A DNA stretch of 64,000 bases, from IMG/VR virus record IMGVR_UViG_3300045988_176106. One strand, given 5' to 3'. Positions within the stretch are counted from its first letter, which is position 1. Each line of letters starts with the position of its first letter. A program made the position numbers and the translations under genes. The DNA is from a virus. Of this stretch, positions 42,752 to 59,193 are shown piece by piece. Under the pieces are notes generated by a model that saw only the letters and a list, made by a program, of their open reading frames with translations, had not been told where the DNA came from and made no database searches.

Positions 42752-43450
42752 ACCGGGAGTTACAGATCCGCCCCAAAGGTCCATCTTATCTCTTATTTGA
42801 TTAACAAATATAAGAGTTGTATTAGACCGTTTAAGAGGTTTCAGCAATTGAGGAATAGACTTAGACAAGAATCTAGCTTTTTCAGCCATAGTTTCTTGTG
42901 TAAAATCTCCACTCATTTCACGTTTAGTTTGTATTGCAGGCACACTATCCAAAATGATTAAACTGAATGCACCAGTTTTAATAGCATTATTTATAATATC
43001 AAATGCTTCTTCAGCAGAGTTAACTTGAGTAAATAAAATTCTCTCATCATTTTCCATATCAAGTCCAAGTAACTTCATATATCTAAAGTTTTGAGCTTGC
43101 TCTGCATCAATATACAATATAAATTTATCAGGATGCTTTTTAAGTGCATTAGCACAAGTCATAGTAACGATAGAAGATTTGCCACTACCAGACTGTCCAT
43201 GAATTTCATGAACTCTACCTTCTGCCCATCCACCATTACCAATAAGAGCGTCCAATATTGCACTACCAGTAGGGATGCCTTCAAGATTCATATCATAATC
43301 AGTTATAAATACTTGATCGCCATCACCATACTTTTTATTCATACTTCTTTTTAATATTTCTATTGCCGCTCTATTATCTTTTGATATTTCAGCAACAACA
43401 CCAGAAGATACTTCTTTATCTTCTTTTACATCTTTTGCAACTCTTGCCAT
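42752..43450 (-). CDS. recA: RecA recombinase, exon 1
   Basis: TGSAILDALIGNGGWAEGRVHEIHGQSGSGKSS (Walker A), IDAEQA, LIILDSVPA, and LIFVNQIR. Colinear with E. coli RecA. Confidence 0.9.
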
Positions 43451-43990: not shown

Positions 43991-44300
43991 TTTTAAACCT
44001 TTCAGATAGCTTAATTAATACATGAGATTGCAATAACAATTGCAATCCTATATTTTCAGGATATTCATTACAATGCCTTTCAATACTCCAAGCATCATCA
44101 GGATTAAGATTAGATAAATCTGGATCTTTCTGAGTAAATTGTAAAGCAAATAATCTTACAATATTACCAATCATAATTAAAAACTCTTCATTAGTTGGAT
44201 AATCTTTTTCCAACACTTCAGAATAAGCCTTAATAAGATTTTTAACTTTTACTTTGTTCATTATTATTCTTTTCAAATAAAAGTCCATAAGCAACGGCAA
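43983..44300 (-). CDS. hypothetical protein (true start probably the internal Met at 44261)
   Basis: The ORF overlaps the ruvC 3' end by 59 nt. The MNKVKV Met reduces the overlap to 20 nt. Confidence 0.35.
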   Translation of the reverse strand: MPLLMDFYLKRIIMNKVKVKNLIKAYSEVLEKDYPTNEEFLIMIGNIVRLFALQFTQKDPDLSNLNPDDAWSIERHCNEYPENIGLQLLLQSHVLIKLSERFKND

Positions 44301-44763
44301 TTGCTACAGCATCTGATTCATCATAATTATTAAAATCAATAGAATCAAAATCTTCAATATATTTAGATAAAGAATCTCTTACTTCTTCTTTTGTAGCTCT
44401 ACCGCTTCCAGCAACAATCTTTTTAACAGATTGAGGTGCCAATACATCGAATGATTTTTTAAGATTATTGACTATTTGAAATCTATATAATCCACCAAGT
44501 TCGCCTAAGTCGGCTATCTTACCTGGAGATCCATAACTATAATTTTCAAGAACAAAAAAGGATATCTCTTTAGCAGCAGAAAAGTTCTCAGTATAAAATT
44601 TAAATACCTGATAATTTTCTAACTTTCTATCAAATCCCTTTGAGTGTCTAGATGGACTAATAGTCTTCTTATCAATAAGCTTAAATTTGCTGTCGCCAAG
44701 ATATTCGACGACAGCAATACCAGTCGATGATATAGATATATCTACACCAGCAAAATAGGCCAT
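44242..44763 (-). CDS. ruvC: RuvC-like Holliday junction resolvase
   Basis: FAGVDISISSTGIAVV (Asp 1), VLENYSYG (Glu), and YDESDAVAIAVAYG (Asp-x-x-Asp region). Confidence 0.8.
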   Translation of the reverse strand: MAYFAGVDISISSTGIAVVEYLGDSKFKLIDKKTISPSRHSKGFDRKLENYQVFKFYTENFSAAKEISFFVLENYSYGSPGKIADLGELGGLYRFQIVNNLKKSFDVLAPQSVKKIVAGSGRATKEEVRDSLSKYIEDFDSIDFNNYDESDAVAIAVAYGLLFEKNNNEQSKS

Positions 44764-44764
44764 A

Positions 44765-45145
44765 TTATTTATGGCCCATAAAGTAATTCTCTAGTGCAGC
44801 ATCTAATACGCTACGAGTATCACCAGCAGATGTAATATCTTTAATCATTTGTGCTTTAACAACATCAATAGCACCAAGAGCCTTGTAAACATCCATATTG
44901 GTATTATAAACAAGGGCTCCTTGAGTATTAAATCTAATATCAAAATACTCTACATTGCTTATTACTTCACTTTTATCTGGAGAATCTGATTCTGTGATGC
45001 TTTTTGGAGCATCTTTATATTCAGCAGATACAACATCCAACATATCTAAATTATTAGGCGGTGTAGTAGAAAGATCAGAGGAACTTTCCCCACTTGTAGC
45101 AATTACTTCACCGTCATTAACAGAAGTTAAATTTTCCATTATCAA
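44765..45145 (-). CDS. hypothetical acidic protein
   Basis: 126-aa ORF, coupled upstream by ATGA. Confidence 0.4.
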   Translation of the reverse strand: MIMENLTSVNDGEVIATSGESSSDLSTTPPNNLDMLDVVSAEYKDAPKSITESDSPDKSEVISNVEYFDIRFNTQGALVYNTNMDVYKALGAIDVVKAQMIKDITSAGDTRSVLDAALENYFMGHK

Positions 45146-45918
45146 TCCTTAATCCAAAAATCAATTTTATCTGAACCATAAATTAAAGCCATTTTTACTA
45201 TATTGCACATATCCTTATACGATAAATGTGCACCAGGAATTTTGTCATCAATAACATTTCCGGGGTAAATATTGAGAACTTTTCCTTCACTATTAGTAAG
45301 TGATATTCTATTAGTCAACTTAAGAGATTTACCAAGTCCAGGATCAGAAAGTTTTATTTCTTCTAAAACTTTATTAAGAAGATCCTCTACATTTATTGAT
45401 ACTAATTCTTCTGAATTTGTTATTACCTGGTCTTGTTTTTTAGAACCTAACTCTTTTTCTAATGGATCTTCGGCTAATCCAAAAGCTCCATCATCATGAA
45501 TCTTAGGTTCAGGTTTCATAACATTATCATTAGATTTTAAAAGTTCGAGATTCTTTTTAAAATCTTGGAGCAATTCCCAAAGTTGCATTTTATCATCGCT
45601 AACAGCAATGCTGGACGCATATTCCTTAATAGATCCAGTAAGGCCATATAATAGAACGCCTCTTTCTTTATCCACTATTGCGCCATTTAAAAGATCTTTA
45701 GCTTTATAAATCTTAGCGTCAATAAATTTACGAGCAATTACACCAAATAAACTATTAAAACATATAAATAAATTTTTATCAGATATGTCAATATCTGTAG
45801 ATGACACATCTAAAACCTTTATAAAGCTTTCAGAAACATCAATAAAAGATAAAACTTTTTTAATATCTTCTATATCAGTATTAGAAACTTTATCAGCTAT
45901 AATATAAACATTTTTCAT
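45142..45918 (-). CDS. hypothetical protein translationally coupled to the RT
   Basis: 258 aa. Its ATG shares one nucleotide with the RT stop (TAATG at 45916-45920). Confidence 0.45.
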   Translation of the reverse strand: MKNVYIIADKVSNTDIEDIKKVLSFIDVSESFIKVLDVSSTDIDISDKNLFICFNSLFGVIARKFIDAKIYKAKDLLNGAIVDKERGVLLYGLTGSIKEYASSIAVSDDKMQLWELLQDFKKNLELLKSNDNVMKPEPKIHDDGAFGLAEDPLEKELGSKKQDQVITNSEELVSINVEDLLNKVLEEIKLSDPGLGKSLKLTNRISLTNSEGKVLNIYPGNVIDDKIPGAHLSYKDMCNIVKMALIYGSDKIDFWIKD

Positions 45919-47954
45919 TAATTGACACCTATACTATTTTCAATAGTTTCAAATAGATTTATAAACTCTAAAGCAATTTTATCGCCATAAAAAATGGTTT
46001 TTAAATCAGAATAATATGATTTATCATTTATAGAATCAGAAAACACATCAAGCGGGAAAGAGATTATACTAGTATTTCTAAGATTAACTTTTGCAAATAA
46101 TCTTCTATCGCCAAGCTCATTATTACTTGCATAACTATAATTAAATAAAAAGTCTTTATATAATATATAATATATTAAAGTAAGTCTTAATTCGGGAATA
46201 CTAACTCTTTCCAATATATTCCTATTAGGAATAAATGCCCCACCAATGCTTTCATATTTTCTAATCGATATAGATTTCATAAATAAATCTGCGGAATCTT
46301 TTTCATGATATATGCGTATAATTGAATTAAGATATTCAGATTTTGAAACTTTTGAATTTTTAGATATGCTGTAAAACAATTCTCTGAAATCTTTTACTAC
46401 AGATTTATCAAAATATTTATCAAAAACATTTCTTAATCTATCGTCATTTAATTTAACATTCATACCATGATGGATAACGAAATCTTTGGTACCATTATTA
46501 TTAATACAATAAGATAAGAATCCTTTTGTTTTAGAGTCATAATTAAAATCCAAAGAATTAGAAATTAAATCAATCATTTCTTTACGTTTTGTAGATCCGA
46601 TATGAACAGTAGATTCAGAGGTCTTTCCAGGAGCAGGCACTACCAATCCCAAAATAGAAGCGTCTTCATGTCTTCTAAAAATCTTAGTCTTACTATAATT
46701 AAGATGAAGCCCATATCGATTAACAAGCTCATCTACTTTCTTAGCAATAGAGAAATCTATTTTATTTTCAGCAGACGTATTTGATGTGTAAATAGTAATA
46801 TCGTCAGCATATCTAATAAAATTATATTTAACATCCGTAGAAAGATCTTTTAGTAAACTTTTAAGTTTTATATCAAAATCCAATAAAAATATATTGCTTA
46901 ATACAGGGCTATAAGAAGCACCAGTAGGCAATTTATTATTATGCATTAAAAAAGACAGTGTTCTATAAAAGAATTGAAGAAAATATTCTCTTTTATCCGG
47001 CATACTTGGCTCTCTTAATGCAATAAATGAACCACTATCATTTACTTTATAAGACCCCGATACATTATTGCTACCAGAAGTAAAGAATTTATATAGCCTT
47101 CCCATCATTTTAATATCTTTGTATGGTTTAATTCTTCTAGGAAAAGCGAAAACACTTCTTATACTAAGCTTATTAAGATATATGCCATACTCATTAAATT
47201 TAAAAGATTTTGGACAACTTACTAAATCTTCAGATTCTTTAAACGAACTTTTTACAGCAGAAACATCTAAAGGCTTATTAAATACATACTCTAAATATTT
47301 ATATTTTTTACCAGAAATAGAATCAAATAAAATATTTACAACATCATTATCAAAGAATTTTTTCATATCAACATTGTTAAAAAATTTAGCAATGTCTATA
47401 TTAATAACTTCAGAGCGTTTATTCTGTAAAGTTTGCATTATTGACGCAATAGAAATATTTCTTCTAAATCCTATAATATTATGGTATAATCCTAAGCTTG
47501 AAATAGCTTTATCATATTCTTGTTCAAATATAAGAGTATAAAGACGATGAAAATATTTTATATTATTTATATCTTCTGCAGACAAAAGAGTATTTATAGT
47601 AGTGATTTTTCTACCTTTTCTATTTGTATAGTTCCTAAACAAAATTGTATCAGCAAAATCAGAAAGAAATTCAGATACAATAGAATAAGATTTTAATAGT
47701 TCGTCTCTTCCGCCAAAGTCGGGGAAATACATTTCCCGAAATTTATTTTTATTTACGCATTGGTTTAAAATGCCAATAGATTTAGTAACACTATCTTTAC
47801 TATTCTTGATATAGCATTTTTGACCTAAGTCTTTGTTAATGGCAGATTCACCTTTGATAATTTGATCTAAAATTAAGGAACACTTATTAGCATATCCAGA
47901 TGTAACAACAATAAGTGAATACCAAAATCTATTATCTGTAATATATCTATACAT
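45918..47954 (-). CDS. reverse transcriptase (retron/group II/Abi-like catalytic core) with large unique N- and C-terminal regions
   Basis: Motif A is INIDIAKFFNNV, motif B is LPTGASYSPVLSNIFL, motif C is FIRYADDITIY, and motif D is LHLNYSKTKIF. About 130 aa are inserted between motifs A and B, and the C-terminal region is ~230 aa. Confidence 0.85.
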   Translation of the reverse strand: MYRYITDNRFWYSLIVVTSGYANKCSLILDQIIKGESAINKDLGQKCYIKNSKDSVTKSIGILNQCVNKNKFREMYFPDFGGRDELLKSYSIVSEFLSDFADTILFRNYTNRKGRKITTINTLLSAEDINNIKYFHRLYTLIFEQEYDKAISSLGLYHNIIGFRRNISIASIMQTLQNKRSEVINIDIAKFFNNVDMKKFFDNDVVNILFDSISGKKYKYLEYVFNKPLDVSAVKSSFKESEDLVSCPKSFKFNEYGIYLNKLSIRSVFAFPRRIKPYKDIKMMGRLYKFFTSGSNNVSGSYKVNDSGSFIALREPSMPDKREYFLQFFYRTLSFLMHNNKLPTGASYSPVLSNIFLLDFDIKLKSLLKDLSTDVKYNFIRYADDITIYTSNTSAENKIDFSIAKKVDELVNRYGLHLNYSKTKIFRRHEDASILGLVVPAPGKTSESTVHIGSTKRKEMIDLISNSLDFNYDSKTKGFLSYCINNNGTKDFVIHHGMNVKLNDDRLRNVFDKYFDKSVVKDFRELFYSISKNSKVSKSEYLNSIIRIYHEKDSADLFMKSISIRKYESIGGAFIPNRNILERVSIPELRLTLIYYILYKDFLFNYSYASNNELGDRRLFAKVNLRNTSIISFPLDVFSDSINDKSYYSDLKTIFYGDKIALEFINLFETIENSIGVN

Positions 47955-47977
47955 ATTATTTTTCTTATAATAAAAAT

Positions 47978-48003
47978 GCCTGTACTCAATTAAGAGTACA
48001 GGC
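47978..48003 (-). terminator. rho-independent terminator between the E1-like gene and the RT
   Basis: Minus strand reads GCCTGTACTC-TTAATT-GAGTACAGGC (10 bp) followed by ATTTTTATTAT. Confidence 0.75.
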
Positions 48004-48012
48004 TAATTGAAA

Positions 48013-49443
48013 TTAAATATATTGTGCCACTTTTAATACACAGTATATTGTATAAAATAATGCGCCATAAGAGCAATTATAATAATCATATTTTGATGAA
48101 TCATTTCCATAATATGAAGATGTAATATTATCAGAATATCCTGTTCTATATACAACAGAAGGTAAACATATATTAAGAAGATGATTTCTTACTTCTTCAG
48201 AAATTTTTGTAGTAACAAAATTGTTAATAGTATTACCAAAATATAACTCTGAATTACTATCATTAGTCATAAGTCTAACAACAGTATTAAGAGAAGAAAG
48301 ATCATTTTTATTGACAGCTTTTTCAAACAATTTAAATGTTTCTTTTATGTCATCTTCACTTAAAACTTCTTTAAGTTTAATAGCACTTTCAATACATGAA
48401 AGAATATGTTCATTATAGACTTTGCGCTCAGTAGTTACAAGAACTGGAGACATTGCACTAAAACGAATTTCCTGAGGTAACGGACTAGTGAATCTATTTT
48501 TAGTAATATTATCAATCAACGTAACAAAATAAGAATGGCCTACAGTTGCAGCCATATCATTTGCTACCAAAAATTGATCTTGAAATTCTTCAGAAACATC
48601 AGCCTCTGCACAAGAGAAAACAACTACATCTTCATCAGAAGTAATAATGGCTTCATGATATTCTGCAAAAGAATCTTGAAGGATTAATGGTGCATTTTTA
48701 GGATAATTAGAATATGTTTCATTAATACGAGACATATTATAATATGACGCAAAAAGTTGACCATGAGTTTGTTCATTACCAATGTCAATAACTACATATG
48801 GAGAATTAGATGCTCTAATATATTTATGCAATTCACGACGTTCAACATCATTATCTACAAGATTGAAAATAATACCTAGTGAATTTAGTTTAGAAAGTGT
48901 ACCTTCTAAAACATCATTAAAAGAAATAAAAGCTTCAGGGTGTTCTTTTTTAGAAGGGTCTATCGTAAGATATTTATCATAAAATACACATTGTGTACCT
49001 TCAACAAGTGTTGATCCATAACGCATAGCCATTACTTCAGCTTTATTTTTACCAATATCATTCTCAATAAAGTTCTGCCTTATAAGATTCTTGGTCTCGA
49101 TAGTGTCAAAATCCACAAGATTTAAACAAAATTTATCTTTTGTGATAATATCTTTACGAATCATATCATTAATTGTCTTAGCAAGCTTAGGCATTAACCA
49201 TGATCCAGTACCGCCACATCCAATAACAGTAATGGCACCTACCTGAATAATATTATCAGAACTTAAATTAAATTTTTCAAAATCTTTAATAGAAAAAAGA
49301 TATTGTAAACCGCCTTTCAAAAAGGCTTTCTTACCAATCTCTTCAGCTTTTTTATTCAAAAAATCTGTACGTTGACGTTGTTCATCACTAATAATGTTAT
49401 AAACGTTAGATGAACTATCTTTAACTTCTCTATAAATACTCAT
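48013..49443 (-). CDS. E1-like (ThiF/MoeB/UBA family) adenylyltransferase with a ~200-aa unique C-terminal region
   Basis: Rossmann loop VIGCGGTGSWL followed by LVDFDTIETKNLIRQNF..DIGKNKAEV (the DxDxVxxSNLxRQ signature) and LVDNDVERR. Confidence 0.85.
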   Translation of the reverse strand: MSIYREVKDSSSNVYNIISDEQRQRTDFLNKKAEEIGKKAFLKGGLQYLFSIKDFEKFNLSSDNIIQVGAITVIGCGGTGSWLMPKLAKTINDMIRKDIITKDKFCLNLVDFDTIETKNLIRQNFIENDIGKNKAEVMAMRYGSTLVEGTQCVFYDKYLTIDPSKKEHPEAFISFNDVLEGTLSKLNSLGIIFNLVDNDVERRELHKYIRASNSPYVVIDIGNEQTHGQLFASYYNMSRINETYSNYPKNAPLILQDSFAEYHEAIITSDEDVVVFSCAEADVSEEFQDQFLVANDMAATVGHSYFVTLIDNITKNRFTSPLPQEIRFSAMSPVLVTTERKVYNEHILSCIESAIKLKEVLSEDDIKETFKLFEKAVNKNDLSSLNTVVRLMTNDSNSELYFGNTINNFVTTKISEEVRNHLLNICLPSVVYRTGYSDNITSSYYGNDSSKYDYYNCSYGALFYTIYCVLKVAQYI

Positions 49444-49473
49444 TTAAAATCCAATATAAAATATTAGAAAAAA

Positions 49474-49490
49474 TGGGGCACTAGGCCCCA
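49474..49490 (-). terminator. rho-independent terminator between the JAB and E1-like genes
   Basis: Minus strand reads TGGGGC-CTAGT-GCCCCA followed by TTTTTTCT. Confidence 0.65.
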
Positions 49491-49498
49491 ACTTAAAA

Positions 49499-50932
49499 TT
49501 AAGGAATGTTTCTAAAAGGCTTTTTGGTTAATGTATTTTCATAAATACTATAACGAACTGCCTCTAAATCTTTTACAAAATCATCAATATTTGAATCTAC
49601 TGATGTTCCATTTTTAAGCATGTACGCATGAATACCATGTAGTATTCCATTAAATATTGTAACACTTATATCTTCTTCTTTGCTATGACTTGCAATTGTA
49701 TCCAAGAATGACTGAACAAGGCAGCAATTCGCGTCATATTCTCCGCATTTATTTTTAAGAATATCTACTATTACTGATCCAGCTTTATAAATCTCTTGGA
49801 TTTCTTCAGTGGTAAATCCATCAGAGTTACCACAATATTCTTCAAAGATGCCATCATAGTCAAGAGGATCGGCATAATCCCATATATTAAGATGGGCAGG
49901 ACGCTGAAAAACATTTGATCCGCTATTATGACCGTATCCAGTATTTGTAGACATTACAGAATTATAAAGAGTAGAATAATCCTCATCATCAAAATCATAA
50001 TCATAAGGGCCATAATGAATCCCAGGCTTCCATCCTTCATTATTAAAATAATGATTCCCACCCTTTTTAACATTATGGTTGCTACCAGTTTTACCATAAG
50101 AATATCCAGTATGATAACTAGGATACTTAGGAGGAGTATGGACAATAGCAGTTACTTTAGAATATTCACTTTCTGGAATAGAAATAGTTCCAATAAGAGG
50201 ATCTTCTAAATCAAAAATATCTGACAATTGAAGCGGAAACTCATATTTATCATAAACACAACGCTGCACTGTAGTGTTAGTATAAGTACCATCAGGATTA
50301 ATTTTTAATCCACCAAATACAAATGAATAAATACCATTATGCTTAGCTTCATCAGCCTTATCAGTTCCGCTATAAAATGCACCCATAGTATGATGAGAAT
50401 GGCTTGTTACAACAAGAATCTTATTAGGATCATCATAAAATGGTCCAGTTTTATCAAATGAAATACTGGCTGAAGCTACACGTTGTACAGGAACTTCAAT
50501 AAAAAATTCTTTTAACTCTTTGTCCCACCAGATCTGAGCCATTACTTCATTTTTATTAGAAGCATAAATGGTTTTATAAAAATCACAGATAGCTTTATAA
50601 AAGCGACCAGGAATTTTAGGGAAATCTGGATTAGGAGTAAAAGTAACTTTGCCCTCAGGCAAATGTAACAACTTGTTACTAAAATCATCCTTACGGATAA
50701 AAAAGTCGCCAATAGGCGAAGAGAATACGCGATATATACCATCTTGCATTACAGAGATGTCGCCACGATTCTTACCTACCTCACCAATAAGAACGTTTGG
50801 TTTATCAATACCAGTAATAAGAGATGATAAAGAAGCCAGACTCATAACTTGAGCTGGAGCAGCATTCGTAGCTGCATTTGAAACAGTGGCAGCGTTATTG
50901 CCGCCACTAGTAGTAATATTAGATACTGTCAT
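49499..50932 (-). CDS. JAB/MPN (JAMM) metallopeptidase-domain protein with a long low-complexity and helical C-terminal region
   Basis: HSHHTMGAFYSGTD is an exact HxHx7Sx2D JAMM motif. An upstream Glu lies in NEVMAQIWW. The tail is rich in Tyr/Gly/Asn/Asp/His (YDYDFDDEDY..). Confidence 0.8.
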   Translation of the reverse strand: MTVSNITTSGGNNAATVSNAATNAAPAQVMSLASLSSLITGIDKPNVLIGEVGKNRGDISVMQDGIYRVFSSPIGDFFIRKDDFSNKLLHLPEGKVTFTPNPDFPKIPGRFYKAICDFYKTIYASNKNEVMAQIWWDKELKEFFIEVPVQRVASASISFDKTGPFYDDPNKILVVTSHSHHTMGAFYSGTDKADEAKHNGIYSFVFGGLKINPDGTYTNTTVQRCVYDKYEFPLQLSDIFDLEDPLIGTISIPESEYSKVTAIVHTPPKYPSYHTGYSYGKTGSNHNVKKGGNHYFNNEGWKPGIHYGPYDYDFDDEDYSTLYNSVMSTNTGYGHNSGSNVFQRPAHLNIWDYADPLDYDGIFEEYCGNSDGFTTEEIQEIYKAGSVIVDILKNKCGEYDANCCLVQSFLDTIASHSKEEDISVTIFNGILHGIHAYMLKNGTSVDSNIDDFVKDLEAVRYSIYENTLTKKPFRNIP

Positions 50933-50936
50933 ATTT

Positions 50937-51698
50937 TTATACTCTACAGTTAAGAGAAATAAAAGCCTCTAAATTATCTGCAAGAACACCATTTAGATAA
51001 TTAGAAACATTAAATTTAATATCGGGATTGAAACGCATTAATGTACAAAGTCTCACAAACTTATTAAACCTTGATGCTTTTTCAAACATGTCCTCAGTCA
51101 TGCCATTTTTTAATGCAGAAGACTTCAATTCTGTAAAATCTGCTCTGACTTCACAGTCTCCGCCCAAATCGCAATTAAATTTACTTGCCCAATACAAATC
51201 AGGTATTGTTTCAATATTAAACAAATCCATACCTGTACATACAGATTCTACCATATTAAAATTATCTCCCCAACAAATACCAGGAGAAAATGTAGAACTA
51301 TAATTATGCATTGGAAATTTAAAAATTTTTGTATTCTTGGTTAAACGCTTATCATCATAAGAGCCAATAATCGTTTTTACCAACCGGTTATTTCTAAATT
51401 TTAAAGCGTAAACAGTATTAGGAATGCGAATAGGAATAGTTTCTCTAGAATAAGCAGATACAAGATCAACATTTCTTCCAGGCTTATTTAAAACAATAAC
51501 AGTATGTGGACCATTTTTCCAATATTTAATAACAGAAGCAGGCATAAGAGGAGTTTCCTCTACGCTAGTTGAATCTGTGAAAGCGGTTATAAAATCTTTA
51601 AGTTGAACAATCTTGGTTGATTTTTTACCATCTTCATCGATAACAAGATTTACAAGCTCATTATCTACAATTTTAAAAGTTACATTATCTAACTTCAT
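50937..51698 (-). CDS. candidate E2-like (UBC-fold) protein
   Basis: FKFPMHNYSSTFSPGICWGDN resembles the UBC HPN-x(6-8)-G-x-IC flap with its catalytic Cys. Its position immediately upstream of the JAB and E1 genes fits. This is a motif-level call only. Confidence 0.35.
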   Translation of the reverse strand: MKLDNVTFKIVDNELVNLVIDEDGKKSTKIVQLKDFITAFTDSTSVEETPLMPASVIKYWKNGPHTVIVLNKPGRNVDLVSAYSRETIPIRIPNTVYALKFRNNRLVKTIIGSYDDKRLTKNTKIFKFPMHNYSSTFSPGICWGDNFNMVESVCTGMDLFNIETIPDLYWASKFNCDLGGDCEVRADFTELKSSALKNGMTEDMFEKASRFNKFVRLCTLMRFNPDIKFNVSNYLNGVLADNLEAFISLNCRV

Positions 51699-53121
51699 CT
51701 ACAATTTCCTTTACTCTACTTTTAATAATAGAGGTAAGTTTATCTGGATTAAGATAATTTTTACGTTCAATTATAATATTATCATAAAAATTAGATACTT
51801 TAGATACAGCAATTTGAACATCTTCATTTTTATTTACAATAAAAAATTTAGGTGCTTCATTCTCTGTAAATGCAAGCAATGAAGTATCGTAAAATTTATT
51901 ATCCCATGAAAGATTTGCCGGAGATTCCCCACTAGAAGAAACAAATTGTCTATTTTTATATTGACCAAAATTTCCGCGAGCAATATAGAAATTTTTACAA
52001 GAAATATTATTAACAAAATTGTTATAATATCTCAATGAACATTCTGCATAAAAATCTTTAGAAGTTTTATCTAGCATACCATAATTCAGGGCAGTAACTG
52101 CTAATGTAAAAAGCTTTTGAAGTAATGGAGACTCAGAATATTCTCTAGGAAAATCACTTTCATAATAATCAAGTTTATTATTCCTAATAAGATTTTTATA
52201 TCCAACACCCATTTTAGGAGAAGGATTTTGGAATCCATAATACGAATAATCGATCTTGCGGCATTTCATATCTGTTGTATTTAAAACAAGATCATAATTA
52301 AAACTTTCATGAATATGATACCCGAAATTAGGATCAGAATACGGAATCTCTCCAGAATTTCTTATGGCATAATCAAGATTCATTTCATTTAAACTATCAA
52401 AATTATAACGCGGAATACTAGATCCATTAATTAATAATCCAGTCTCATTCTTGATATACCTAAAATTCTCTACATCAAAAAACAGCTTAAGCTTAGGAAT
52501 ATCTATATCTTTATAATTATCAATTATAAAGTTGTGTGCATAGATAAGCTCTAAAACTTTTTTGGCATCATTTTTATCAATTCCAACCTCGATATTAGAC
52601 ATATCAGAATATACATAAAGCATATGTTGAAACCACTCTAAAAATGAATCGCCACCAATAGCATTATACCAAATATCAAATCCATCTAATGTTATTTTAC
52701 CTCGATGTGTATTTGACTTTTTAGCTTTTTTAATCGCATTAAATTCTTTAGAACCCATATTCTGAATACCAAAGAACATAGGATAATTCACAAATAGAAA
52801 AAATTTATATGCAGATTTAGCATAAGAATCTAAATCTTCAATAGTTCTAGGAAAAGTATTAATACCAATGTTACCGTCAACATTGATGGTAACATTATCA
52901 ATATTGACACCTATACTTTTATTAAATGATATTAAATTTTTAGAGCTAGAATTAACTTCTTCTTCAAAAGCAAGTTTAATTAAATTGCCCAATTGAGATT
53001 TATATGTTCTAGTGAAATTATTAGGATTGCCAGAATATTTAAATGTTTTAGATACACCAAAATCTTCAAAAGAATATTTTAATGAATTTAAAGCACCTTT
53101 ATAAATTATATGTTCATTCAT
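51685..53121 (-). CDS. hypothetical protein
   Basis: 478-aa ORF overlapping the E2-like gene start by 14 nt. No motif recognised. Confidence 0.45.
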   Translation of the reverse strand: MNEHIIYKGALNSLKYSFEDFGVSKTFKYSGNPNNFTRTYKSQLGNLIKLAFEEEVNSSSKNLISFNKSIGVNIDNVTINVDGNIGINTFPRTIEDLDSYAKSAYKFFLFVNYPMFFGIQNMGSKEFNAIKKAKKSNTHRGKITLDGFDIWYNAIGGDSFLEWFQHMLYVYSDMSNIEVGIDKNDAKKVLELIYAHNFIIDNYKDIDIPKLKLFFDVENFRYIKNETGLLINGSSIPRYNFDSLNEMNLDYAIRNSGEIPYSDPNFGYHIHESFNYDLVLNTTDMKCRKIDYSYYGFQNPSPKMGVGYKNLIRNNKLDYYESDFPREYSESPLLQKLFTLAVTALNYGMLDKTSKDFYAECSLRYYNNFVNNISCKNFYIARGNFGQYKNRQFVSSSGESPANLSWDNKFYDTSLLAFTENEAPKFFIVNKNEDVQIAVSKVSNFYDNIIIERKNYLNPDKLTSIIKSRVKEIVDEVR

Positions 53122-53133
53122 TATTTAAACCCA

Positions 53134-54348
53134 TTAAAAATAAGTGATAATCTGAACTTGAGGTAATAAACGAATATTTTTAATTGAAACTCTCATAGGC
53201 TTTCTATTATGAATCAGTAAATCTTTTTTATATTTTTCAATTCGTTCTTCAATATCAGATTCAGCAAAAGCAATTACTTCCTCTCTAGAGAGAAAAGAAC
53301 TACTACGAGCTTCTTCAAGTTTCTTCAAAATAGGAGATTCTTTAAATTCTTCAAAATCTTGAGCAGAATCAAAAATATATTTAACTCTATCTTCCATAGT
53401 TTCAAATATAATTTTCTCTTTTTTATCTTCTTCTTTTTCTTTCACTTTAGATTTATCATCAATAAGGGAAGATCTAAGAAGAGATAAAACTCTATTAGAA
53501 GACTCACTAACAGATTGTTCAGCCGGCATAATATCCTCCAGACCATCGTTTACATCACAAAGACTACAAATAACCAAATTTATAATACCTGATTCGAAAT
53601 CACATCTGTATTCGAGGTTAATTTCAGCTGCACATTCATCAAAATATTCTACAAAATGTTCACATTCTTCTTCTGTAAATAATTCATTAGCAGGCTTATC
53701 TAACTCAGTTAAATAATCTGTTACTATTGATAATACTCGTTCTGAAATATATGGTACATCTTCTGTTTTAACAACTCTTAAAAAATAATTAGAATCAGCA
53801 TATTCACTATCATCATATTCTACTAAAGAAGAAATATATAAAGTAGCTCTGCCAGCATGAATATTTGTACGAATATCAATAAAAGAGAAATTTCTATACA
53901 AATCTAATTTAAGCTTTTTAAAAAGAACTATAAAATCATTACCTATTATTTTATCTCTAGAAATATTAGGATTTAAACGCTGCATTGAAAATATAATATC
54001 GTCAACTTTCCTATTAATAAGATTTTGATAATGATCAGGAATGTGAGATATTGAACGAATATCAAGTCTGCATAGTTCAGAACTAGGCAAATATCCATTA
54101 TCAGAAAAACAAATTTCCCCTAAAATATTAAGTTTCAGTTGTTTAAATGAAAGATAATCACGTTGAGGAGCCTCAACTGGTCTAATATCCTCAACAGCAA
54201 CATAAACCGATTCAGGAGCATCAATAGTTCTAATTCTACTTAAAATTCTTGAAGTAGCTGACTCATCATGAGGACTATTATCTATGTCCACTCTTCTACT
54301 TCCAGATATAAGACTACGTAAGTCGCTAACATTTAAAATATTAGACAT
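53134..54348 (-). CDS. hypothetical protein
   Basis: 404-aa ORF with an acidic central region. No motif recognised. Confidence 0.45.
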   Translation of the reverse strand: MSNILNVSDLRSLISGSRRVDIDNSPHDESATSRILSRIRTIDAPESVYVAVEDIRPVEAPQRDYLSFKQLKLNILGEICFSDNGYLPSSELCRLDIRSISHIPDHYQNLINRKVDDIIFSMQRLNPNISRDKIIGNDFIVLFKKLKLDLYRNFSFIDIRTNIHAGRATLYISSLVEYDDSEYADSNYFLRVVKTEDVPYISERVLSIVTDYLTELDKPANELFTEEECEHFVEYFDECAAEINLEYRCDFESGIINLVICSLCDVNDGLEDIMPAEQSVSESSNRVLSLLRSSLIDDKSKVKEKEEDKKEKIIFETMEDRVKYIFDSAQDFEEFKESPILKKLEEARSSSFLSREEVIAFAESDIEERIEKYKKDLLIHNRKPMRVSIKNIRLLPQVQIITYF

Positions 54349-54374
54349 AAATTATAAACCTCTATAAAATTTAA

Positions 54375-54414
54375 AAGGCACCCGTATACTATATAAAGTG
54401 TATACAAGTGCCTT
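54375..54414 (-). terminator. rho-independent terminator after the 64-aa gene
   Basis: Minus strand reads AAGGCAC...GTGCCTT with an inner GTATAC/GTATAC helix, followed by TTTTAAATTTT. Confidence 0.6.
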
Positions 54415-54470
54415 AATTCTTTATGAGAACTGAATCTCTTATAAATCAAATTGTAAAGTTTTTAACTTTA

Positions 54471-54665
54471 TTAAGCTTTGCTGCCAGTTGACAGAGACAC
54501 TACCAAGATTTCATCTTGAATTTGGGTAGTGTAGTTTGAAGCATTGTTCAGAACTGGATGTTCTTGAGCCAAAGCTGACAAAATTTCAGAAACAGGAGCT
54601 ACTTGACCACCGAAAGTGGTAGTTTCGCCATTATAAGTAAAACCTTTTACGTATTGAGTAGACAT
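54471..54665 (-). CDS. 64-aa protein, possible beta-grasp (ThiS/MoaD/ubiquitin-like) fold
   Basis: The pattern FTYNGETTTF..VAPVSEILSALAQEHPVL...IQDEILVVSLSTGSKA resembles the ThiS layout (xNGe...tv.eLl..l...dgD.i.vv...G). GC-richer codon usage. It has its own terminator. Confidence 0.3.
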   Translation of the reverse strand: MSTQYVKGFTYNGETTTFGGQVAPVSEILSALAQEHPVLNNASNYTTQIQDEILVVSLSTGSKA

Positions 54666-54690
54666 ATTTTTGCCTTAAATTTAAAAATAA

Positions 54691-55101
54691 TTAAGAAATG
54701 ATGCTGTGTACGGCCACAACATTACCAAATTCATCGTGAAGTTTAATACGATCGCCGACCAAACCTTCTTGACGAACAAATTCATTGAACTCTTCAATAG
54801 TACCAAATACAATCAAAGTATCCAAATCAGATTGAACTGCATCACGAACAGTCTCTGCATCTGCTACAACAAGTTGTTGTTTTTTAATAAAGCTAGAGAC
54901 TTCTGATTTGTCCAAAACTTTAGGACCTGATACAGCTGCAGTAGGAGTACCAGAACCACGAACAGCGCTAACAATATCACTAGCGCTCATTACCTGAGCA
55001 GCACCAGGCAAACGAGCAGGAACAGTGATAGTCAGTTCACCGCCCAGAAGGGCAATGTTTGACAAATCAACGCCGGTAATACGAACATTAATTTCATTCA
55101 T
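54691..55101 (-). CDS. hypothetical protein (GC-richer, probably highly expressed)
   Basis: 136-aa ORF. No motif recognised. Confidence 0.45.
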   Translation of the reverse strand: MNEINVRITGVDLSNIALLGGELTITVPARLPGAAQVMSASDIVSAVRGSGTPTAAVSGPKVLDKSEVSSFIKKQQLVVADAETVRDAVQSDLDTLIVFGTIEEFNEFVRQEGLVGDRIKLHDEFGNVVAVHSIIS

Positions 55102-55107
55102 TTGTTT

Positions 55108-55587
55108 TTACCAGTTTAAAATTGAAGGAATAGAATGTTTAATTAAAACATTCAAAGCGAATGTTTCATCAACACTCAAAGGGATAGATAGTGAAGATTT
55201 TTCTCCACCAACATTTTGTGCAACAGACAAGAAATAAGGAGAAGCTCCACCAGTTGAACGTTTAAGTCCAATTGTTTTTGTGTTGCCATTAAATTCATGG
55301 AATAAATCAACATCTAATCCACGTTCAATTGCGTATCCTAATTTTTGCAAATCAGGCATACCCAATTTTACTCCAATTTTCTTGTTTTCCCATTCGTATG
55401 TTTTATTTTTAGCATTAGCATCTTTTACAGGTGCAGCTTCTAAAAATACAAATCCAGCATTAAGTTTTTTATTAGTGCCTTCTTCAACAACTTGAGGCTT
55501 TACTAAACGAAATCTTAAGGCAGCTTTGCCTTTAAAAATCGAATAGTGTTTTGCCTCTTTAGAAACATCATAATCAGCCATTACCAC
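55108..55587 (-). CDS. Whirly-family single-stranded DNA-binding protein
   Basis: YSIFKGKAAL (the plant Whirly KGKAAL motif), YEWENKK (YDWxxKQ), LFHEF (EFFHD), SPYFLSV (GxFFxLSV), and the C-terminal SIPSILNW (MPxLLGW). Colinear with plant Why1 over the full length, by recall. Confidence 0.7.
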   Translation of the reverse strand: MVMADYDVSKEAKHYSIFKGKAALRFRLVKPQVVEEGTNKKLNAGFVFLEAAPVKDANAKNKTYEWENKKIGVKLGMPDLQKLGYAIERGLDVDLFHEFNGNTKTIGLKRSTGGASPYFLSVAQNVGGEKSSLSIPLSVDETFALNVLIKHSIPSILNW

Positions 55588-55943
55588 GGAGTCCCAGATG
55601 GAATAGTAGCTTTAGATCTAACTTCTGTAGCCACTACAGGTTCTCTACGTTCTTCTACGTGTTCACTATTTGAACTATCTTTAGGTTTTGATCCACCTAT
55701 TAGTCCAGCTTCCTTAAGGATTGCTTCAGAGATACTATCACGTGCTTCTCTGTTAATAGGTCCAGCAGTTTCTTGCCACTTACCATCAGCTTTTTTATAG
55801 CCCGGATAAGAGACAAAATAGCCTTTAGATGAATCTCCCCATATTGTAAAGTTTAGCTGAACTGCGTCTGCTACAACTACAAATCCAGATCCAGAATGTT
55901 TATCTGTATCTCTCTTTGGCCACATTCTTACATTGATTTTCAT
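55581..55943 (-). CDS. SpoVG-like protein
   Basis: GFVVVADAVQLNFTIWGDSSKGYFVSYPGYKKADGKWQETAGPINREARDSISEAILKE parallels SpoVG [49 protein letters not shown]. Confidence 0.5.
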   Translation of the reverse strand: MKINVRMWPKRDTDKHSGSGFVVVADAVQLNFTIWGDSSKGYFVSYPGYKKADGKWQETAGPINREARDSISEAILKEAGLIGGSKPKDSSNSEHVEERREPVVATEVRSKATIPSGTPW

Positions 55944-56470
55944 TTTGTACCCTTTTTACGATAATTGATAAAATGTCTATAAACGCCAGCTTCTTTAAGC
56001 TCAGCATTAACATCTTTACCATACAGATGAGAAGCATCTGCAAAATATCTTACAGTATATCCATCTTTAGCAAAACGTTTCATCGTATTGCTCATTGAAC
56101 CAAATAAATCAAGTCCAACAAAGGATAAATTATAAGTATTTTTATCAAATACAAAATCTAAATCTGAACCATTAATGACAACATCAGAACCATCAGTAAC
56201 ATCTTTCAGGTACAATCTATTATCTACATGGAACCAGTCATCATTAGCAATAATTAATTTAGCTATAGGATGATTTTCATCATTCCATAAATTATTAGTA
56301 TCTCTATTATAATCAACCAATAATATACGGTCAGCTTTAATTAATCCTTTTGAAATACTATCTTTCAAAAAGGCTAATGTAGAGTCTGTGTTACGAATGT
56401 ATCTAGGACCACTTTTATCTGTAGTTTGGTCATTCAGCATAGATACGATGAGCAAATCTTTTTTACCCAT
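55940..56470 (-). CDS. hypothetical protein (possible isochorismatase-like fold lacking the catalytic Cys)
   Basis: DLLIVSMLNDQ and FVGLDLFGSMSNTMKRFAKDGYTV resemble the isochorismatase-family pattern, but Cys is replaced. Confidence 0.25.
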   Translation of the reverse strand: MGKKDLLIVSMLNDQTTDKSGPRYIRNTDSTLAFLKDSISKGLIKADRILLVDYNRDTNNLWNDENHPIAKLIIANDDWFHVDNRLYLKDVTDGSDVVINGSDLDFVFDKNTYNLSFVGLDLFGSMSNTMKRFAKDGYTVRYFADASHLYGKDVNAELKEAGVYRHFINYRKKGTK

Positions 56471-56513
56471 GTATAGTTTTCCTTATTATTATTATTGTTA
56501 TAGAAAACTGTAT

Positions 56514-59187: not shown

Positions 59188-59193
59188 TTAACT

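What the first reader, a model, noticed from the sequence alone, without database searches (positions are those of the whole stretch)
48013..51698. Virus-encoded E2-like / JAB / E1 ubiquitin-type triad inside the replication arm
Seen in sequence:
- 48013-49443 has the Rossmann loop GCGGTGS followed by LVDFDTIETKNLIRQNF, which is the ThiF/MoeB/E1 adenylation signature.
- 49499-50932 has HSHHTMGAFYSGTD, an exact JAMM HxHx7Sx2D motif, plus an upstream Glu.
- 50937-51698 has PMHN-x8-G-ICWGDN, which resembles the UBC HPN...Cys flap.

Established knowledge: the same-strand order E2-like > JAB > E1 is the classical prokaryotic triad (Iyer/Burroughs/Aravind). Its components also occur in bacterial CBASS Cap2/Cap3 and Bil anti-phage operons.

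What is unusual:
- The triad sits in a phage, between orphan genes and a reverse transcriptase.
- The E1-like and JAB proteins are roughly twice the minimal domain size. Each carries a unique C-terminal region of about 200 aa. The JAB tail is Tyr/Gly/Asn/Asp/His-rich.
- Hairpin terminators separate JAB from E1 and E1 from the RT.
- No GG-terminated Ubl gene is adjacent.

Inference: this is either a phage-run protein conjugation/deconjugation system acting on virion or replication proteins, or a counter-measure against host Ub-like defences.
Basis: partly seen in the sequence, partly recalled or inferred. Interest (0 to 1): 0.9.

Follow-up and report, generated by a model that had tools for sequence, protein, structure and literature searches.

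The report
Phage-encoded ubiquitin-like conjugation cassette
A ~180-kb uncultured human-oral phage carries what looks like a complete ubiquitin-like tagging kit (small tag protein, E1 activator, E2-like carrier, JAB protease) related to the uncharacterised plasmid "PRTRC" cassettes, and many other large phages share the kit, some with polyubiquitin-like tag genes.

Summary
The three minus-strand ORFs exist at the stated coordinates with the stated motifs. 48013-49443 is a ThiF/E1 adenylase (adenylation residues and Cys278 invariant). 49499-50932 is a JAMM/JAB peptidase (E129, H178, H180, S188, D191). 50937-51698 belongs to Pfam Prok-E2_D / PRTRC protein B (P-x-x-N132...C142-x-G in all 75 family members). 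The closest known system is the uncharacterised plasmid/ICE "PRTRC" cassette (Iyer 2006 type 6d), not CBASS or Bil.

ORF 54471-54665 (64 aa, ends GSKA) is the cognate Prok_Ub-type Ubl: top of 780 window ORFs, E=1e-5. The unit is Ubl - two lineage-specific genes - E2 - JAB - E1.

The same layout occurs in Bacillus, Acinetobacter, Salmonella and Vibrio phages and in 24 of 29 IMG/VR loci with JAB+E1. Ubl genes there hold 1-6 tandem units ending G-x-K-G.

The UBC fold could not be confirmed: AlphaFold confidence was too low and Foldseek found nothing. Best explanation: a phage-run Ubl conjugation/deconjugation cascade with unknown targets. I found no published description. Verdict: new variant of a known kind, interest about 0.7.

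The parts
54471..54665 (-). Ubl, 64 aa, Prok_Ub / PRTRC-C-like. It ends ...STGSKA at the position of the canonical terminal Gly.
   Evidence: - A Ubl profile built from other phages plus canonical PRTRC-C (this ORF excluded) ranks it first of 780 six-frame window ORFs: E=1.1e-5, next best 0.9.
- hhalign to PRTRC-C gives P=52%, E=1.4e-4, against <=6.5% for all other PRTRC families.
- It is the most conserved gene of the cassette, 94% identical to L004/L005.
- Pfam, NCBIfam and exhaustive phmmer alone do not detect it.
53134..54348 (-). orf404, a lineage-specific spacer gene ('X') between Ubl and E2. Function unknown; candidate substrate or adaptor.
   Evidence: - Conserved in position and sequence (51%) in L004/L005.
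- No Pfam, NCBIfam, PHROG or PADLOC hit.
- No profile-profile match to spacer genes of other phages or to PRTRC D/E/F-position genes.
- 12-nt gap to orf478.
51685..53121 (-). orf478, a lineage-specific spacer gene ('Y') whose end overlaps the E2-like start by 14 nt.
   Evidence: - 64% identical in L004/L005.
- No family hit.
- No detectable homology to WH1 gp213, KLEB27-3 gp197 or canonical h336, which occupy the same position.
50937..51698 (-). E2-like protein, 253 aa, of the Prok-E2_D / PRTRC-B family. Catalytic candidates are Asn132 and Cys142.
   Evidence: - Pfam Prok-E2_D E=2e-5, 24.7 bits against a cut-off of 25. Three positional equivalents in other phages hit the same family.
- hhalign of the family against PRTRC-B gives P=87.5%, E=3.6e-6.
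- P-x-x-N-x7(9)-C-x-G is present in all 75 family members.
- N132 and C142 are invariant in 16- and 77-sequence alignments.
- Fold not confirmed.
49499..50932 (-). JAB/JAMM metallopeptidase, 477 aa. PRTRC-A-like core (about residues 90-210) plus a C-terminal extension of about 270 aa: a Y/G/N/D/H-rich linker, then an apparently helical tail (not verified).
   Evidence: - PRTRC_A E=5e-11; Prok-JAB E=1e-4.
- E129 and H178 are invariant; S179, H180, S188 and D191 are nearly invariant across phage and plasmid homologues.
- All phage homologues carry long C-terminal extensions that plasmid PRTRC-A lacks.
- Starts 4 nt after the E2-like stop.
49474..49490 (-). Terminator-like hairpin with a T-run, between JAB and E1.
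   Evidence: Second-best terminator-like site in 44000-56600: 6-bp stem with 5 GC pairs, followed by TTTTTT.
48013..49443 (-). E1-like adenylyltransferase, 476 aa, of the ThiF / PRTRC_ThiF type, with an invariant Cys278.
   Evidence: - Pfam ThiF E=2e-10 (above cut-off); PRTRC_ThiF E=4e-16.
- hhalign to PRTRC ThiF gives P=99.2%.
- Invariant G75, G77, G78, D113, R122, Q123, K134, D197 and C278.
- No rhodanese domain.
47978..48003 (-). Terminator-like hairpin between E1 and the RT gene.
   Evidence: Best terminator-like site of the region: 10-bp stem with 6 GC pairs.

Best explanation
Window 48013-54665 (minus strand) encodes a complete, phage-borne ubiquitin-like protein conjugation/deconjugation module. 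It is a diverged phage branch of the PRTRC / 'type 6d' E1-E2-JAB-Ubl cassettes known from plasmids and ICEs.

Proposed mechanism (inferred from family chemistry, not shown here):
1. The E1 (48013-49443) uses ATP to adenylate the C-terminus of the 64-aa Ubl (54471-54665, ...G-S-K-A).
2. The E1 takes the Ubl onto Cys278 as a thioester.
3. The Ubl passes to Cys142 of the E2-like protein (50937-51698). Asn132 plays the role of the E2 'HPN' asparagine.
4. The Ubl is then transferred to lysines of target proteins.
5. The JAMM peptidase (49499-50932) removes the tag. In sister phages whose Ubl genes are 2-6-unit poly-Ubl or capped precursors, it must first cut out mature units ending G-x-K-G.

The two lineage-specific genes always found between Ubl and E2 (here orf404 and orf478) are candidate substrates or specificity factors.

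The biological role is unknown. The most likely role is modification of host or phage proteins during establishment and takeover of the cell, or of virion proteins.
For: Shown:
- All four enzymatic/tag components are present with their catalytic residues invariant.
- A diagonal-only profile-profile match links the phage families to PRTRC ThiF, A, B and C.
- Gene order is identical to plasmid PRTRC: C - 2 genes - B - A - ThiF.
- orf404, orf478, E2 and JAB are tightly spaced, with gaps of 12, -14 and 4 nt.
- The cassette is syntenic in two 69-84%-identical ~180-kb relatives, and the Ubl is the most conserved gene at 94%.
- The same Ubl-X-Y-E2-JAB-E1 layout occurs in Bacillus WH1 and KLEB27-3, Acinetobacter ME3, Salmonella Arash and Vibrio D69. 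It also occurs in 24 of 29 IMG/VR loci that have JAB+E1.
- Poly-Ubl genes have 2-6 Prok_Ub units, each ending G-x-K-G, with C-terminal caps. WH1 gp211 scores Pfam Prok_Ub E=3e-27 with 5 units. This only makes sense if a peptidase releases conjugation-competent units.
- There are no sulfur-pathway, CD-NTase or ParB genes nearby.
- In relatives an intron-like insertion sits in the E1 active-site codons, and its excision restores the frame. This argues that the gene is kept functional.
Against: - No PRTRC/6d system has ever been tested biochemically, so protein conjugation is an inference from homology.
- The UBC fold of the E2-like protein is not confirmed. AF2 gave pLDDT 43 and 54. Foldseek against the PDB gave no hit with E<0.01 or TM>0.2. 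hhalign to UBE2D2 gave P<=12%, although it aligned N132/C142 to N77/C85.
- Scores to the NCBIfam PRTRC models are far below their trusted cut-offs.
- orf64 is seen only with a custom profile (E=1e-5), and it ends in Ala rather than Gly.
- No target or E3 has been identified.
- The terminator-like hairpins between JAB, E1 and RT mean co-transcription is not certain.
Confidence: 0.68

Rival explanations
1. Counter-defence by interference. The phage proteins do not run their own tagging pathway. Instead they neutralise host Ub-like immunity (Bil, type II CBASS, Bub). For example, the JAB would strip host Ubl or cGAS conjugates, and the E1/E2 would act as decoys or sinks.
For: - Host Ubl-based defences that tag phage tail proteins or prime CD-NTases exist, and they are antagonised by JAB-type cleavage (papers PMC11601596 and PMC10557695).
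- The cassette sits among early/replication genes.
Against: - The phages keep their own cognate Ubl, often as multi-copy precursors, in strict synteny with E2-JAB-E1. A pure deconjugase strategy would not need this.
- The JAB and E2-like proteins give no PADLOC hit to Cap3, Cap2 or Bil models. E1 gives only weak Rossmann hits.
- The closest relatives are plasmid PRTRC proteins.
- An anti-defence role carried out through the phage's own conjugation pathway is not excluded. That reading is part of the main explanation.
Confidence: 0.12
2. Sulfur-carrier or thiocarboxylate chemistry. The E1 adenylates the small beta-grasp protein to make a C-terminal thiocarboxylate, as in ThiS/ThiF, MoaD/MoeB and CysO/MoeZ with the Mec+ JAB. 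The product would serve a cofactor, thionucleoside or DNA/tRNA modification useful to the phage.
For: - E1 hits ThiF/MoeB-type NCBIfam models at E=1e-8 to 1e-5.
- JAB peptidases do partner sulfur carriers in CysO/Mec+ (my own knowledge, not tested here).
- GenBank annotators called the ME3 homologue 'thiamine biosynthesis protein ThiF'.
Against: - There is no rhodanese domain, cysteine desulfurase, ThiG/ThiH, MoaE or CysM-type partner in the cassette or among the neighbours scanned.
- An invariant-Cys E2-like protein is always present.
- The Ubl C-terminus is G-x-K-G/A, not GG.
- Poly-Ubl precursors are unknown for sulfur carriers.
- The best E1 match is PRTRC_ThiF.
Confidence: 0.07
3. Peptide or small-molecule ligation. 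The E1-like enzyme acts like MccB or PaaA, adenylating a peptide C-terminus to build a modified peptide or nucleotide-peptide toxin. The E2-like and JAB proteins would be maturation factors.
For: ThiF-fold enzymes do this in microcin C and pantocin pathways (my own knowledge, not tested here). The variable 'X/Y' genes could be tailoring enzymes.
Against: - The substrate here is a conserved, folded 57-69-aa Prok_Ub domain, not a short peptide.
- No export or immunity genes were detected among the ORFs scanned.
- The conserved E1 Cys plus E2 Asn/Cys pattern is that of a thioester relay.
Confidence: 0.04
4. Decaying or non-functional cargo. The genes would be horizontally acquired remnants of a plasmid PRTRC cassette with no current function.
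For: - Scores to the curated PRTRC models are far below the trusted cut-offs.
- E1 is interrupted in some strains.
- The ME3 JAB gene looks truncated before the HxH motif.
Against: - The ORFs are intact, with every catalytic residue conserved, across lineages that share only about 20-35% identity.
- Gene order is conserved in 24 of 29 viral loci.
- The E1 interruption is a precise, frame-restoring, intron-like insertion.
- The phage is found with an identical E2-like protein in many samples.
Confidence: 0.02

Closest known systems
PRTRC cassette (ParB-Related, ThiF-Related Cassette; Iyer, Burroughs & Aravind 2006 'operon type 6d') of plasmids and ICEs
   Same: - Same four protein families: Prok_Ub Ubl (protein C), Prok-E2_D E2 without the classical His (protein B), JAB (protein A), and a ThiF-type E1 with a conserved Cys.
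- Same order: Ubl - two genes - E2 - JAB - E1.
- Both are carried on mobile DNA next to replication genes (paper PMC1779556).
   Different: - No ParB and no PRTRC D/E/F-position homologues in the 64-kb window.
- Scores are far below the NCBIfam trusted cut-offs.
- The phage JAB is about twice as long, with a C-terminal extension, and the window E1 also has extensions.
- The phage E2 has F-N-x-D where canonical PRTRC-B has F-[ST]-H.
- The Ubl ends G-S-K-A here. In other phages the Ubl is a 2-6-unit polyprotein or is capped.
- PRTRC itself is functionally uncharacterised.
Bil (BilABCD) anti-phage systems
   Same: Separate Ubl, E2, JAB and E1 genes forming a true Ubl-to-lysine conjugation pathway (papers PMC10557695 and PMC11601596).
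   Different: - Bil is a host defence that tags phage tail proteins.
[quoted passage not shown] The E1 here is a single ThiF-like domain with the Cys in an 'S-C-A' motif.
- No PADLOC hits for the JAB, E2-like or Ubl proteins.
- This system is encoded by the virus.
Type II CBASS Cap2 (E1-E2 fusion) / Cap3 (JAB)
   Same: E1 adenylation, an E2 cysteine and JAB reversal. There is weak similarity of the E1 Rossmann region to the PADLOC 'E1-E2' models, best E=2.6e-8 over about 70 aa.
   Different: - No E1-E2 fusion, no CD-NTase and no effector.
- The substrate here is a dedicated Ubl, not a cyclase C-terminus.
- The JAB and E2-like proteins do not match Cap3 or Cap2 models.
Bub (6E / DUF6527) operons
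   Same: A diverged bacterial Ubl pathway whose JAB processes a Ubl-containing precursor (paper PMC11601596).
   Different: - Bub E1 and E2 lack catalytic cysteines and use a serine/oxyester route, with a DUF6527 protease.
- Here both cysteines are invariant, and no DUF6527 was detected among the scanned ORFs.
Eukaryotic polyubiquitin genes and the Ub E1-E2-DUB cascade
   Same: - Sister-phage Ubl genes are head-to-tail repeats with a short C-terminal cap that must be cleaved to expose the reactive C-terminus.
- The Asn-x7-Cys spacing of the E2-like family equals HPN-x7-Cys of UBE2D2.
   Different: - The Ubl ends G-x-K-G/A, not R-G-G.
- The E2 lacks the His of HPN.
- No E3 is recognisable.
- The fold relationship of the E2-like protein is not confirmed here.
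ThiF/ThiS, MoeB/MoaD and CysO/Mec+ sulfur-carrier systems
   Same: ThiF-fold adenylase plus a small beta-grasp protein. A JAB is present in the CysO system.
   Different: No rhodanese or sulfurtransferase partners, no GG terminus, and an E2-like Cys protein is present.

Membership tests
PRTRC / type 6d E1-E2-JAB-Ubl cassette | ThiF-family E1 of the PRTRC_ThiF type with adenylation residues and a conserved Cys, and no rhodanese domain | tested here: met
   - TIGR03736 is the best NCBIfam hit, E=4e-16. At 59 bits it is below the trusted 144.75.
- hhalign P=99.2%.
- C278 and the adenylation residues are invariant with plasmid PRTRC ThiF.
PRTRC / type 6d E1-E2-JAB-Ubl cassette | JAB (PRTRC protein A) with an intact JAMM motif, encoded immediately upstream of E1 | tested here: met
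   - TIGR03735 E=5e-11. At 42 bits it is below the trusted 101.8.
- E129/H178/H180/S188/D191 are conserved.
- The gene lies 55 nt upstream of E1.
PRTRC / type 6d E1-E2-JAB-Ubl cassette | E2 of Pfam Prok-E2_D (PRTRC protein B): conserved Asn and Cys, no classical HPN His, conserved downstream His | tested here: inconclusive
   - Family link met: Pfam 24.7 bits against a cut-off of 25; hhalign P=87.5%; a mixed profile retrieves PF14460 proteins; N132 and C142 are invariant.
- However, the downstream His of canonical members (F-[ST]-H) is replaced by F-N-x-D in the phage clade.
PRTRC / type 6d E1-E2-JAB-Ubl cassette | Small Prok_Ub Ubl (protein C) with a conserved C-terminal Gly, encoded upstream | tested here: inconclusive
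   - A Ubl was found at 54471-54665 with a custom profile (E=1.1e-5) and by hhalign (P=52%).
- Pfam and NCBIfam do not detect it.
- The terminal residue is Ala (GSKA), not Gly.
PRTRC / type 6d E1-E2-JAB-Ubl cassette | Associated ParB-family protein and PRTRC proteins D/E/F | tested here: not met
   Profiles of PRTRC ParB, E, h74 and h336 find nothing in any of the 780 window ORFs at E<=0.1. hhalign of orf136, orf404 and orf478 against E, h74 and h336 gives P<=0.3%.
UBC/E2 fold superfamily | alpha/beta UBC fold (helix, four-strand meander, Asn loop, catalytic Cys, C-terminal helices) | tested here: inconclusive
   - AF2 gave pLDDT 43 and 54.
- The predicted topology is compatible: H33-41, a strand meander at 56-114, N132 in a loop, and C142 just before helix 144-155.
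- Foldseek against the PDB gave best E=0.018, prob 0.14, TM<0.2.
- hhalign to the verified UBE2D2 sequence gave P=0.7-12%, but always aligned N132-N77 and C142-C85.
Type II CBASS (Cap2/Cap3) | E1-E2 fusion protein, a Cap3 JAB, and an adjacent CD-NTase and effector | tested here: not met
   E1 and E2 are separate genes. PADLOC gives only Rossmann-region hits for E1 and none for the JAB or E2-like proteins. No CD-NTase was found among the neighbours.
Bil (BilABCD) | E1 with tandem IAD-AAD plus an inserted CYS domain; ISG15-like Ubl; a host defence context | tested here: not met
   The E1 has a single ThiF-like adenylation domain. There are no PADLOC hits for the JAB, E2-like or Ubl proteins. The system is encoded in a phage genome. 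The Ubl structure was not testable.
ThiF/MoeB sulfur-carrier pathways | GG-terminated ThiS/MoaD partner, a rhodanese or sulfurtransferase, and cofactor-biosynthesis neighbours | tested here: not met
   No such domains were found in the cassette or the flanking ORFs. The Ubl ends GSKA. PRTRC_ThiF outscores the ThiF/MoeB equivalog models.

The most novel reading that the evidence does not exclude
Large bacteriophages run their own ubiquitin-like protein-tagging system: a Prok_Ub tag (made in some lineages from polyubiquitin-like precursor genes of up to six units), an E1, an E2-like enzyme and a JAB protease. They would use it to covalently modify host proteins (for example defence or replication factors) or their own virion proteins. 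That would make it the first complete Ubl conjugation cascade known to be encoded by viruses of bacteria, and a functional handle on the long-uncharacterised PRTRC cassettes of plasmids and ICEs. The GenBank 'structural protein' labels on the WH1 poly-Ubl and on the Arash E1 and E2 homologues hint, unverified, that components are in the virion.
Probability: 0.5. Interest if true: 0.85.

Novelty: new variant of a known kind. Interest (0 to 1): 0.7.

Why it matters
Bacterial ubiquitin-like pathways (type II CBASS, Bil, Bub) have so far been characterised as host weapons against phages. A complete Ubl-E1-E2-JAB module that is conserved across many large phages, and not found described in the literature searched, turns that picture around. 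The virus itself may tag proteins.

It also links phages to the PRTRC cassettes of conjugative plasmids and ICEs, which were predicted in 2006 and never tested. That suggests a shared 'incoming mobile DNA' function.

The polyubiquitin-like precursor genes are a prokaryotic-virus parallel to a hallmark of eukaryotic ubiquitin biology.

Several carriers are cultured and genetically tractable: Salmonella phage Arash, Acinetobacter phage ME3, and Bacillus phages WH1, Edson and KLEB27-3. The question is therefore directly testable.

Tried and rejected
Searches that found nothing:
- Megablast of the 11-kb region against GenBank phages: no match.
- PHROGs: nothing for the JAB, E2-like, Ubl or spacer genes.
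- PADLOC: only weak Cap2 Rossmann hits.
- Sequence search of E1, JAB and the E2 family against the PDB: nothing.
- Exhaustive phmmer of orf64 against 1.8 billion representatives: only near-identical copies plus two low-complexity false positives, P0038 and P0039.
- BLASTP of orf64 against ME3_139: nothing.
- An IMG/VR scan with the E2 alignment returned only the known relative. The E1 alignment A9 was too divergent to make patterns; A11 worked.
- Rfam found no family in the E1 insertions of the relatives.
- Literature searches found no description of phage PRTRC-type systems and no papers on Arash, WH1 or KLEB27-3. The Aravind jumbo-phage survey mentions no JAB, ThiF or Ubl system.

Structure attempts:
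- AlphaFold of the E2-like protein, run 1: pLDDT 43. The MAFFT alignment had put C154 rather than C142 in the catalytic column.
- Run 2, with a subset in the correct register: pLDDT 54. Foldseek against the PDB found nothing meaningful.

Hypotheses rejected:
- My first hhalign run used global mode by mistake. I discarded it and redid it in local mode.
- orf136 is not PRTRC protein E, and orf404/orf478 are not homologues of PRTRC D/F or of the spacer genes of other phages: no support.
- C154 as the catalytic Cys is considered less likely. C142 is N+10 within G-I-C-W-G, identical to the WH1 motif, and it aligns to the family Cys whenever bridging sequences are present.
- The RT is not part of the module. 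It is conserved next to E1 only in the window's own clade.

Full report
**1. Observation**

The three ORFs are real, on the minus strand, at exactly the coordinates given.
- 48013-49443: 476 aa.
- 49499-50932: 477 aa.
- 50937-51698: 253 aa.

The window is a tRNA-rich, ~30% GC phage genome segment. It carries ribonucleotide reductase, primase-helicase, a Pol III-alpha-type polymerase, RecA, RuvC, a Whirly-like SSB and 12 tRNAs. No cultured phage is close. The exact E2-like protein occurs on ~182-kb contigs in many samples, including a human oral metagenome.

**2. Identity of the three proteins**

E1:
- Pfam ThiF E=2e-10. The best NCBIfam hit is PRTRC_ThiF at E=4e-16.
- hhalign to a profile of plasmid/genomic PRTRC ThiF proteins gives P=99.2%.
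- G75, G77, G78, D113, R122, Q123, K134, D197 and Cys278 (S-C-A) are invariant across phage and PRTRC proteins.
- There is no rhodanese domain.

JAB:
- NCBIfam PRTRC_A E=5e-11; Pfam Prok-JAB E=1e-4.
- Glu129 and His178 are invariant. His180, Ser188 and Asp191 are nearly invariant.

E2-like:
- Pfam Prok-E2_D E=2e-5, 24.7 bits against a cut-off of 25.
- Three positional equivalents in other phages hit the same family independently.
- A family profile matches PRTRC protein B at P=87.5%, E=3.6e-6.
- A mixed profile retrieves proteins that all carry PF14460.
- All 75 family members have P-x-x-N-x7-C-x-G; the window clade has x9.
- Asn132 and Cys142 are invariant when the alignment is properly bridged.

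PADLOC gives only weak Rossmann-region similarity of E1 to CBASS Cap2, and nothing for the JAB or E2-like proteins. The module is therefore of the PRTRC / Iyer 2006 'type 6d' kind (paper PMC1779556), not CBASS or Bil.

**3. The missing Ubl and the true extent of the unit**

Plasmid PRTRC cassettes run E - C (69-aa Prok_Ub) - two genes - B - A - ThiF. The window has the same layout:
- orf136
- orf64 (54471-54665)
- orf404
- orf478
- E2-like
- JAB
- E1

The gaps between successive genes are 25, 122, 12, -14, 4 and 55 nt.

Standard tools do not see orf64. A PRTRC-C profile, however, revealed poly-Ubl genes next to the triads of other phages:
- Bacillus phage WH1 gp211 is five tandem Ubl units.
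- KLEB27-3 gp199 is four.
- Vibrio phage D69_0307 is three.
- ME3_139 is one.
- Pfam confirms Prok_Ub at E=3e-27 and 5e-27 for the two Bacillus proteins.
- Salmonella phage Arash has an unannotated 66-aa Ubl ORF ending RTGTKG-stop.

A profile built from these phage units plus canonical PRTRC-C, with orf64 excluded, ranks orf64 first among all 780 six-frame ORFs of the window. It scores E=1.1e-5, while the next ORF scores 0.9. hhalign of orf64 to PRTRC-C gives 52%, against <=6.5% for all other PRTRC families.

orf64 ends G-S-K-A, exactly at the position of the canonical G-T-K-G terminus. It is also the most conserved gene of the cassette, 94% identical in relatives against 51-84% for the others.

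**4. Distribution**

The whole block is syntenic in two ~180-kb IMG/VR relatives.

An E1-based scan of IMG/VR returned 34 loci, mostly on 100-316-kb contigs.
- 29 of them have JAB+E1.
- 24 of those have Ubl ... E2 > JAB > E1 co-linear on one strand.
- Ubl genes hold 1, 2, 5 or 6 units.
- A spacer of roughly 0.9-2.8 kb of other genes always lies between Ubl and E2.
- Some of these loci are duplicate sequences.

The spacer genes show no detectable homology between lineages. ParB and PRTRC D/E/F-position proteins are absent from the window. The RT downstream is conserved only in the window's own clade and lies behind a terminator-like hairpin.

**5. Structural test**

- Two AlphaFold runs gave mean pLDDT 43 and 54. 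The second used an alignment in the correct register.
- The predicted secondary-structure order is what an E2 would show: a helix, a multi-strand antiparallel meander, a long loop with Asn132, then Cys142 at the start of a helix, then further helices.
- Foldseek against the PDB found nothing significant.
- hhalign against a verified UBE2D2 sequence is not significant (P<=12%).
- Even so, it always aligns the family's T-x-L-[YF]-x-x-P-x-x-N...C onto TRIYHPNINSNGSIC. That pairs Asn132 with Asn77 and Cys142 with Cys85, while control families align at random places.

Membership in Prok-E2_D is therefore well supported. The UBC fold itself rests on the published inference for that family.

**6. Most likely mechanism**

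What is shown is an intact, conserved set of Ubl, E1 (adenylation site plus Cys), E2-like (Asn plus Cys) and JAMM peptidase, in a fixed gene order across very divergent phages.

What is inferred is the chemistry:
1. E1 adenylates the Ubl C-terminus.
2. A thioester forms on Cys278.
3. The Ubl transfers to Cys142.
4. The Ubl is passed to target lysines.
5. The JAB reverses the tag. In poly-Ubl or capped lineages the JAB also matures the precursor.

In this window the Ubl needs no trimming. The JAB is therefore more likely a deconjugase or editor here, and its long extension may bind targets.

The role is inferred only from context. The cassette sits in early/replication arms of phages. On plasmids it lies among primase, DnaN and orphan-methylase genes. 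Together these suggest a function in establishing incoming mobile DNA. The GenBank 'structural protein' labels on the WH1 poly-Ubl and on the Arash E1 and E2 homologues hint at virion association, but I could not verify their basis.

**7. Rivals**

- Pure counter-defence by deconjugation or decoy does not explain the conserved cognate Ubl or the poly-Ubl genes.
- Sulfur-carrier chemistry lacks every partner enzyme and does not need an E2-like Cys protein.
- MccB-like peptide ligation does not fit a folded Ubl domain.
- Decay is contradicted by conserved catalytic residues and synteny.

**8. Novelty**

PRTRC/6d was predicted in 2006 and I found no functional study of it. I found no paper describing phage-borne versions or their poly-Ubl genes. 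GenBank annotators had only labelled single genes 'PRTRC system protein A' or 'ThiF'. The literature library is incomplete, so prior description cannot be excluded.

I rate this a new variant of a known kind. It has the same four families and order. It differs in being virus-encoded, lacking ParB and the D/E/F-position proteins, having an extended JAB, a variant E2 motif, and polyprotein or capped Ubl precursors. This clade alone has an Ala terminus.

Noticed in passing
L004 ~10341-10581; L023 ~5600-5840; L005 ~8797-10000 (equivalent window site ~49100): In close relatives the E1 gene is interrupted, inside the codons of the invariant D-F-D-T-I/V-E-T-K-N motif, by a precise ~241-nt insertion (1.2 kb in L005). 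Removing it from after an exon-terminal U to an intron-terminal G restores the frame exactly, as a group I-type intron would. Rfam does not recognise it. The window copy is uninterrupted. One interrupted strain (L023) has an E2-like protein 100% identical to the window's.
   Followed up: partly
window 33343-33569 (-) and 61305-61576 (-): Two Rfam group I catalytic introns (85.5 and 73.6 bits). The first lies between the two pieces of the split polymerase gene. The second lies in the tRNA-rich region.
   Followed up: no
window 39390-40751 (-) and 29935-31371 (-): A DnaE/Pol III-alpha-type DNA polymerase (phrog_405) is encoded in at least two pieces about 8 kb apart (profile positions 43-443 and 747-1136). 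The middle part and the mode of joining were not examined. The nearest relatives are uncultured human-faecal phage contigs.
   Followed up: no
window 42728-43450 (-) and 42005-42454 (-): RecA is split into two ORFs (Pfam RecA positions 7-198 and 205-261 plus RecA_C), separated by about 270 nt. This may be another intervening sequence.
   Followed up: no
window 45918-47954 (-): A 678-aa reverse transcriptase lies immediately downstream of E1. Its RT core (about aa 330-485) resembles retron, group II and DRT-type RTs. It has a ~330-aa N-terminal and a ~190-aa C-terminal region of unknown function. It is conserved at 65% in the two relatives but absent next to the triads of other phages. Its function is unknown.
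   Followed up: partly
L001 4057-4956 (Bacillus phage WH1 gp211); L007 1718-2425 (KLEB27-3 gp199); L047 1229-2347; L034 2601-3707: These are polyubiquitin-like genes: 4-6 head-to-tail Prok_Ub units, each ending G-[TV]-K-G, with short C-terminal caps. WH1 gp211 is annotated 'virion structural protein' in GenBank. I could not find the basis of that label.
   Followed up: partly
L003 ~107-304 (Salmonella phage Arash, OQ632216.1 ~180516-180713, complement): An unannotated 66-aa Ubl ORF ends ...RTGTKG-stop. GenBank annotates a different frame here (gp251c). The Arash E2-like (gp248c) and E1 (gp246c) homologues are annotated 'structural protein'.
   Followed up: partly
L002 3868-4581 (Acinetobacter phage ME3, ME3_135 and tRNA-Met): The ME3 JAB homologue ('PRTRC system protein A', 144 aa) stops just before the HxH motif and is followed by a tRNA-Met gene. 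E1 lies 2.6 kb further on. The JAB is either split or inactivated in this phage.
   Followed up: no
window 59114-63956 (-): An array of 12 tRNA genes (Thr, Met x2, Cys, Ser x2, Gly, His, Trp, Tyr, Val, Leu).
   Followed up: no
window 55108-55587 (-) and 55581-55943 (-): A Whirly-family protein (Pfam E=1e-10, probable ssDNA-binding protein) and a SpoVG-like protein lie just upstream of the cassette. Both are highly conserved in relatives (95% and 82-83%).
   Followed up: no
L012 (B. thuringiensis plasmid pAM65-52-3-235K) 7475-8798, and 85 Bacillus plasmid records: Many large, non-mobilizable Bacillus cereus-group plasmids encode a related ThiF-type E1 preceded by small ORFs. One of these (L012 7460-7948) has a weak Ubl-profile match. 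They may be plasmid or phage-plasmid versions of the same module.
   Followed up: no
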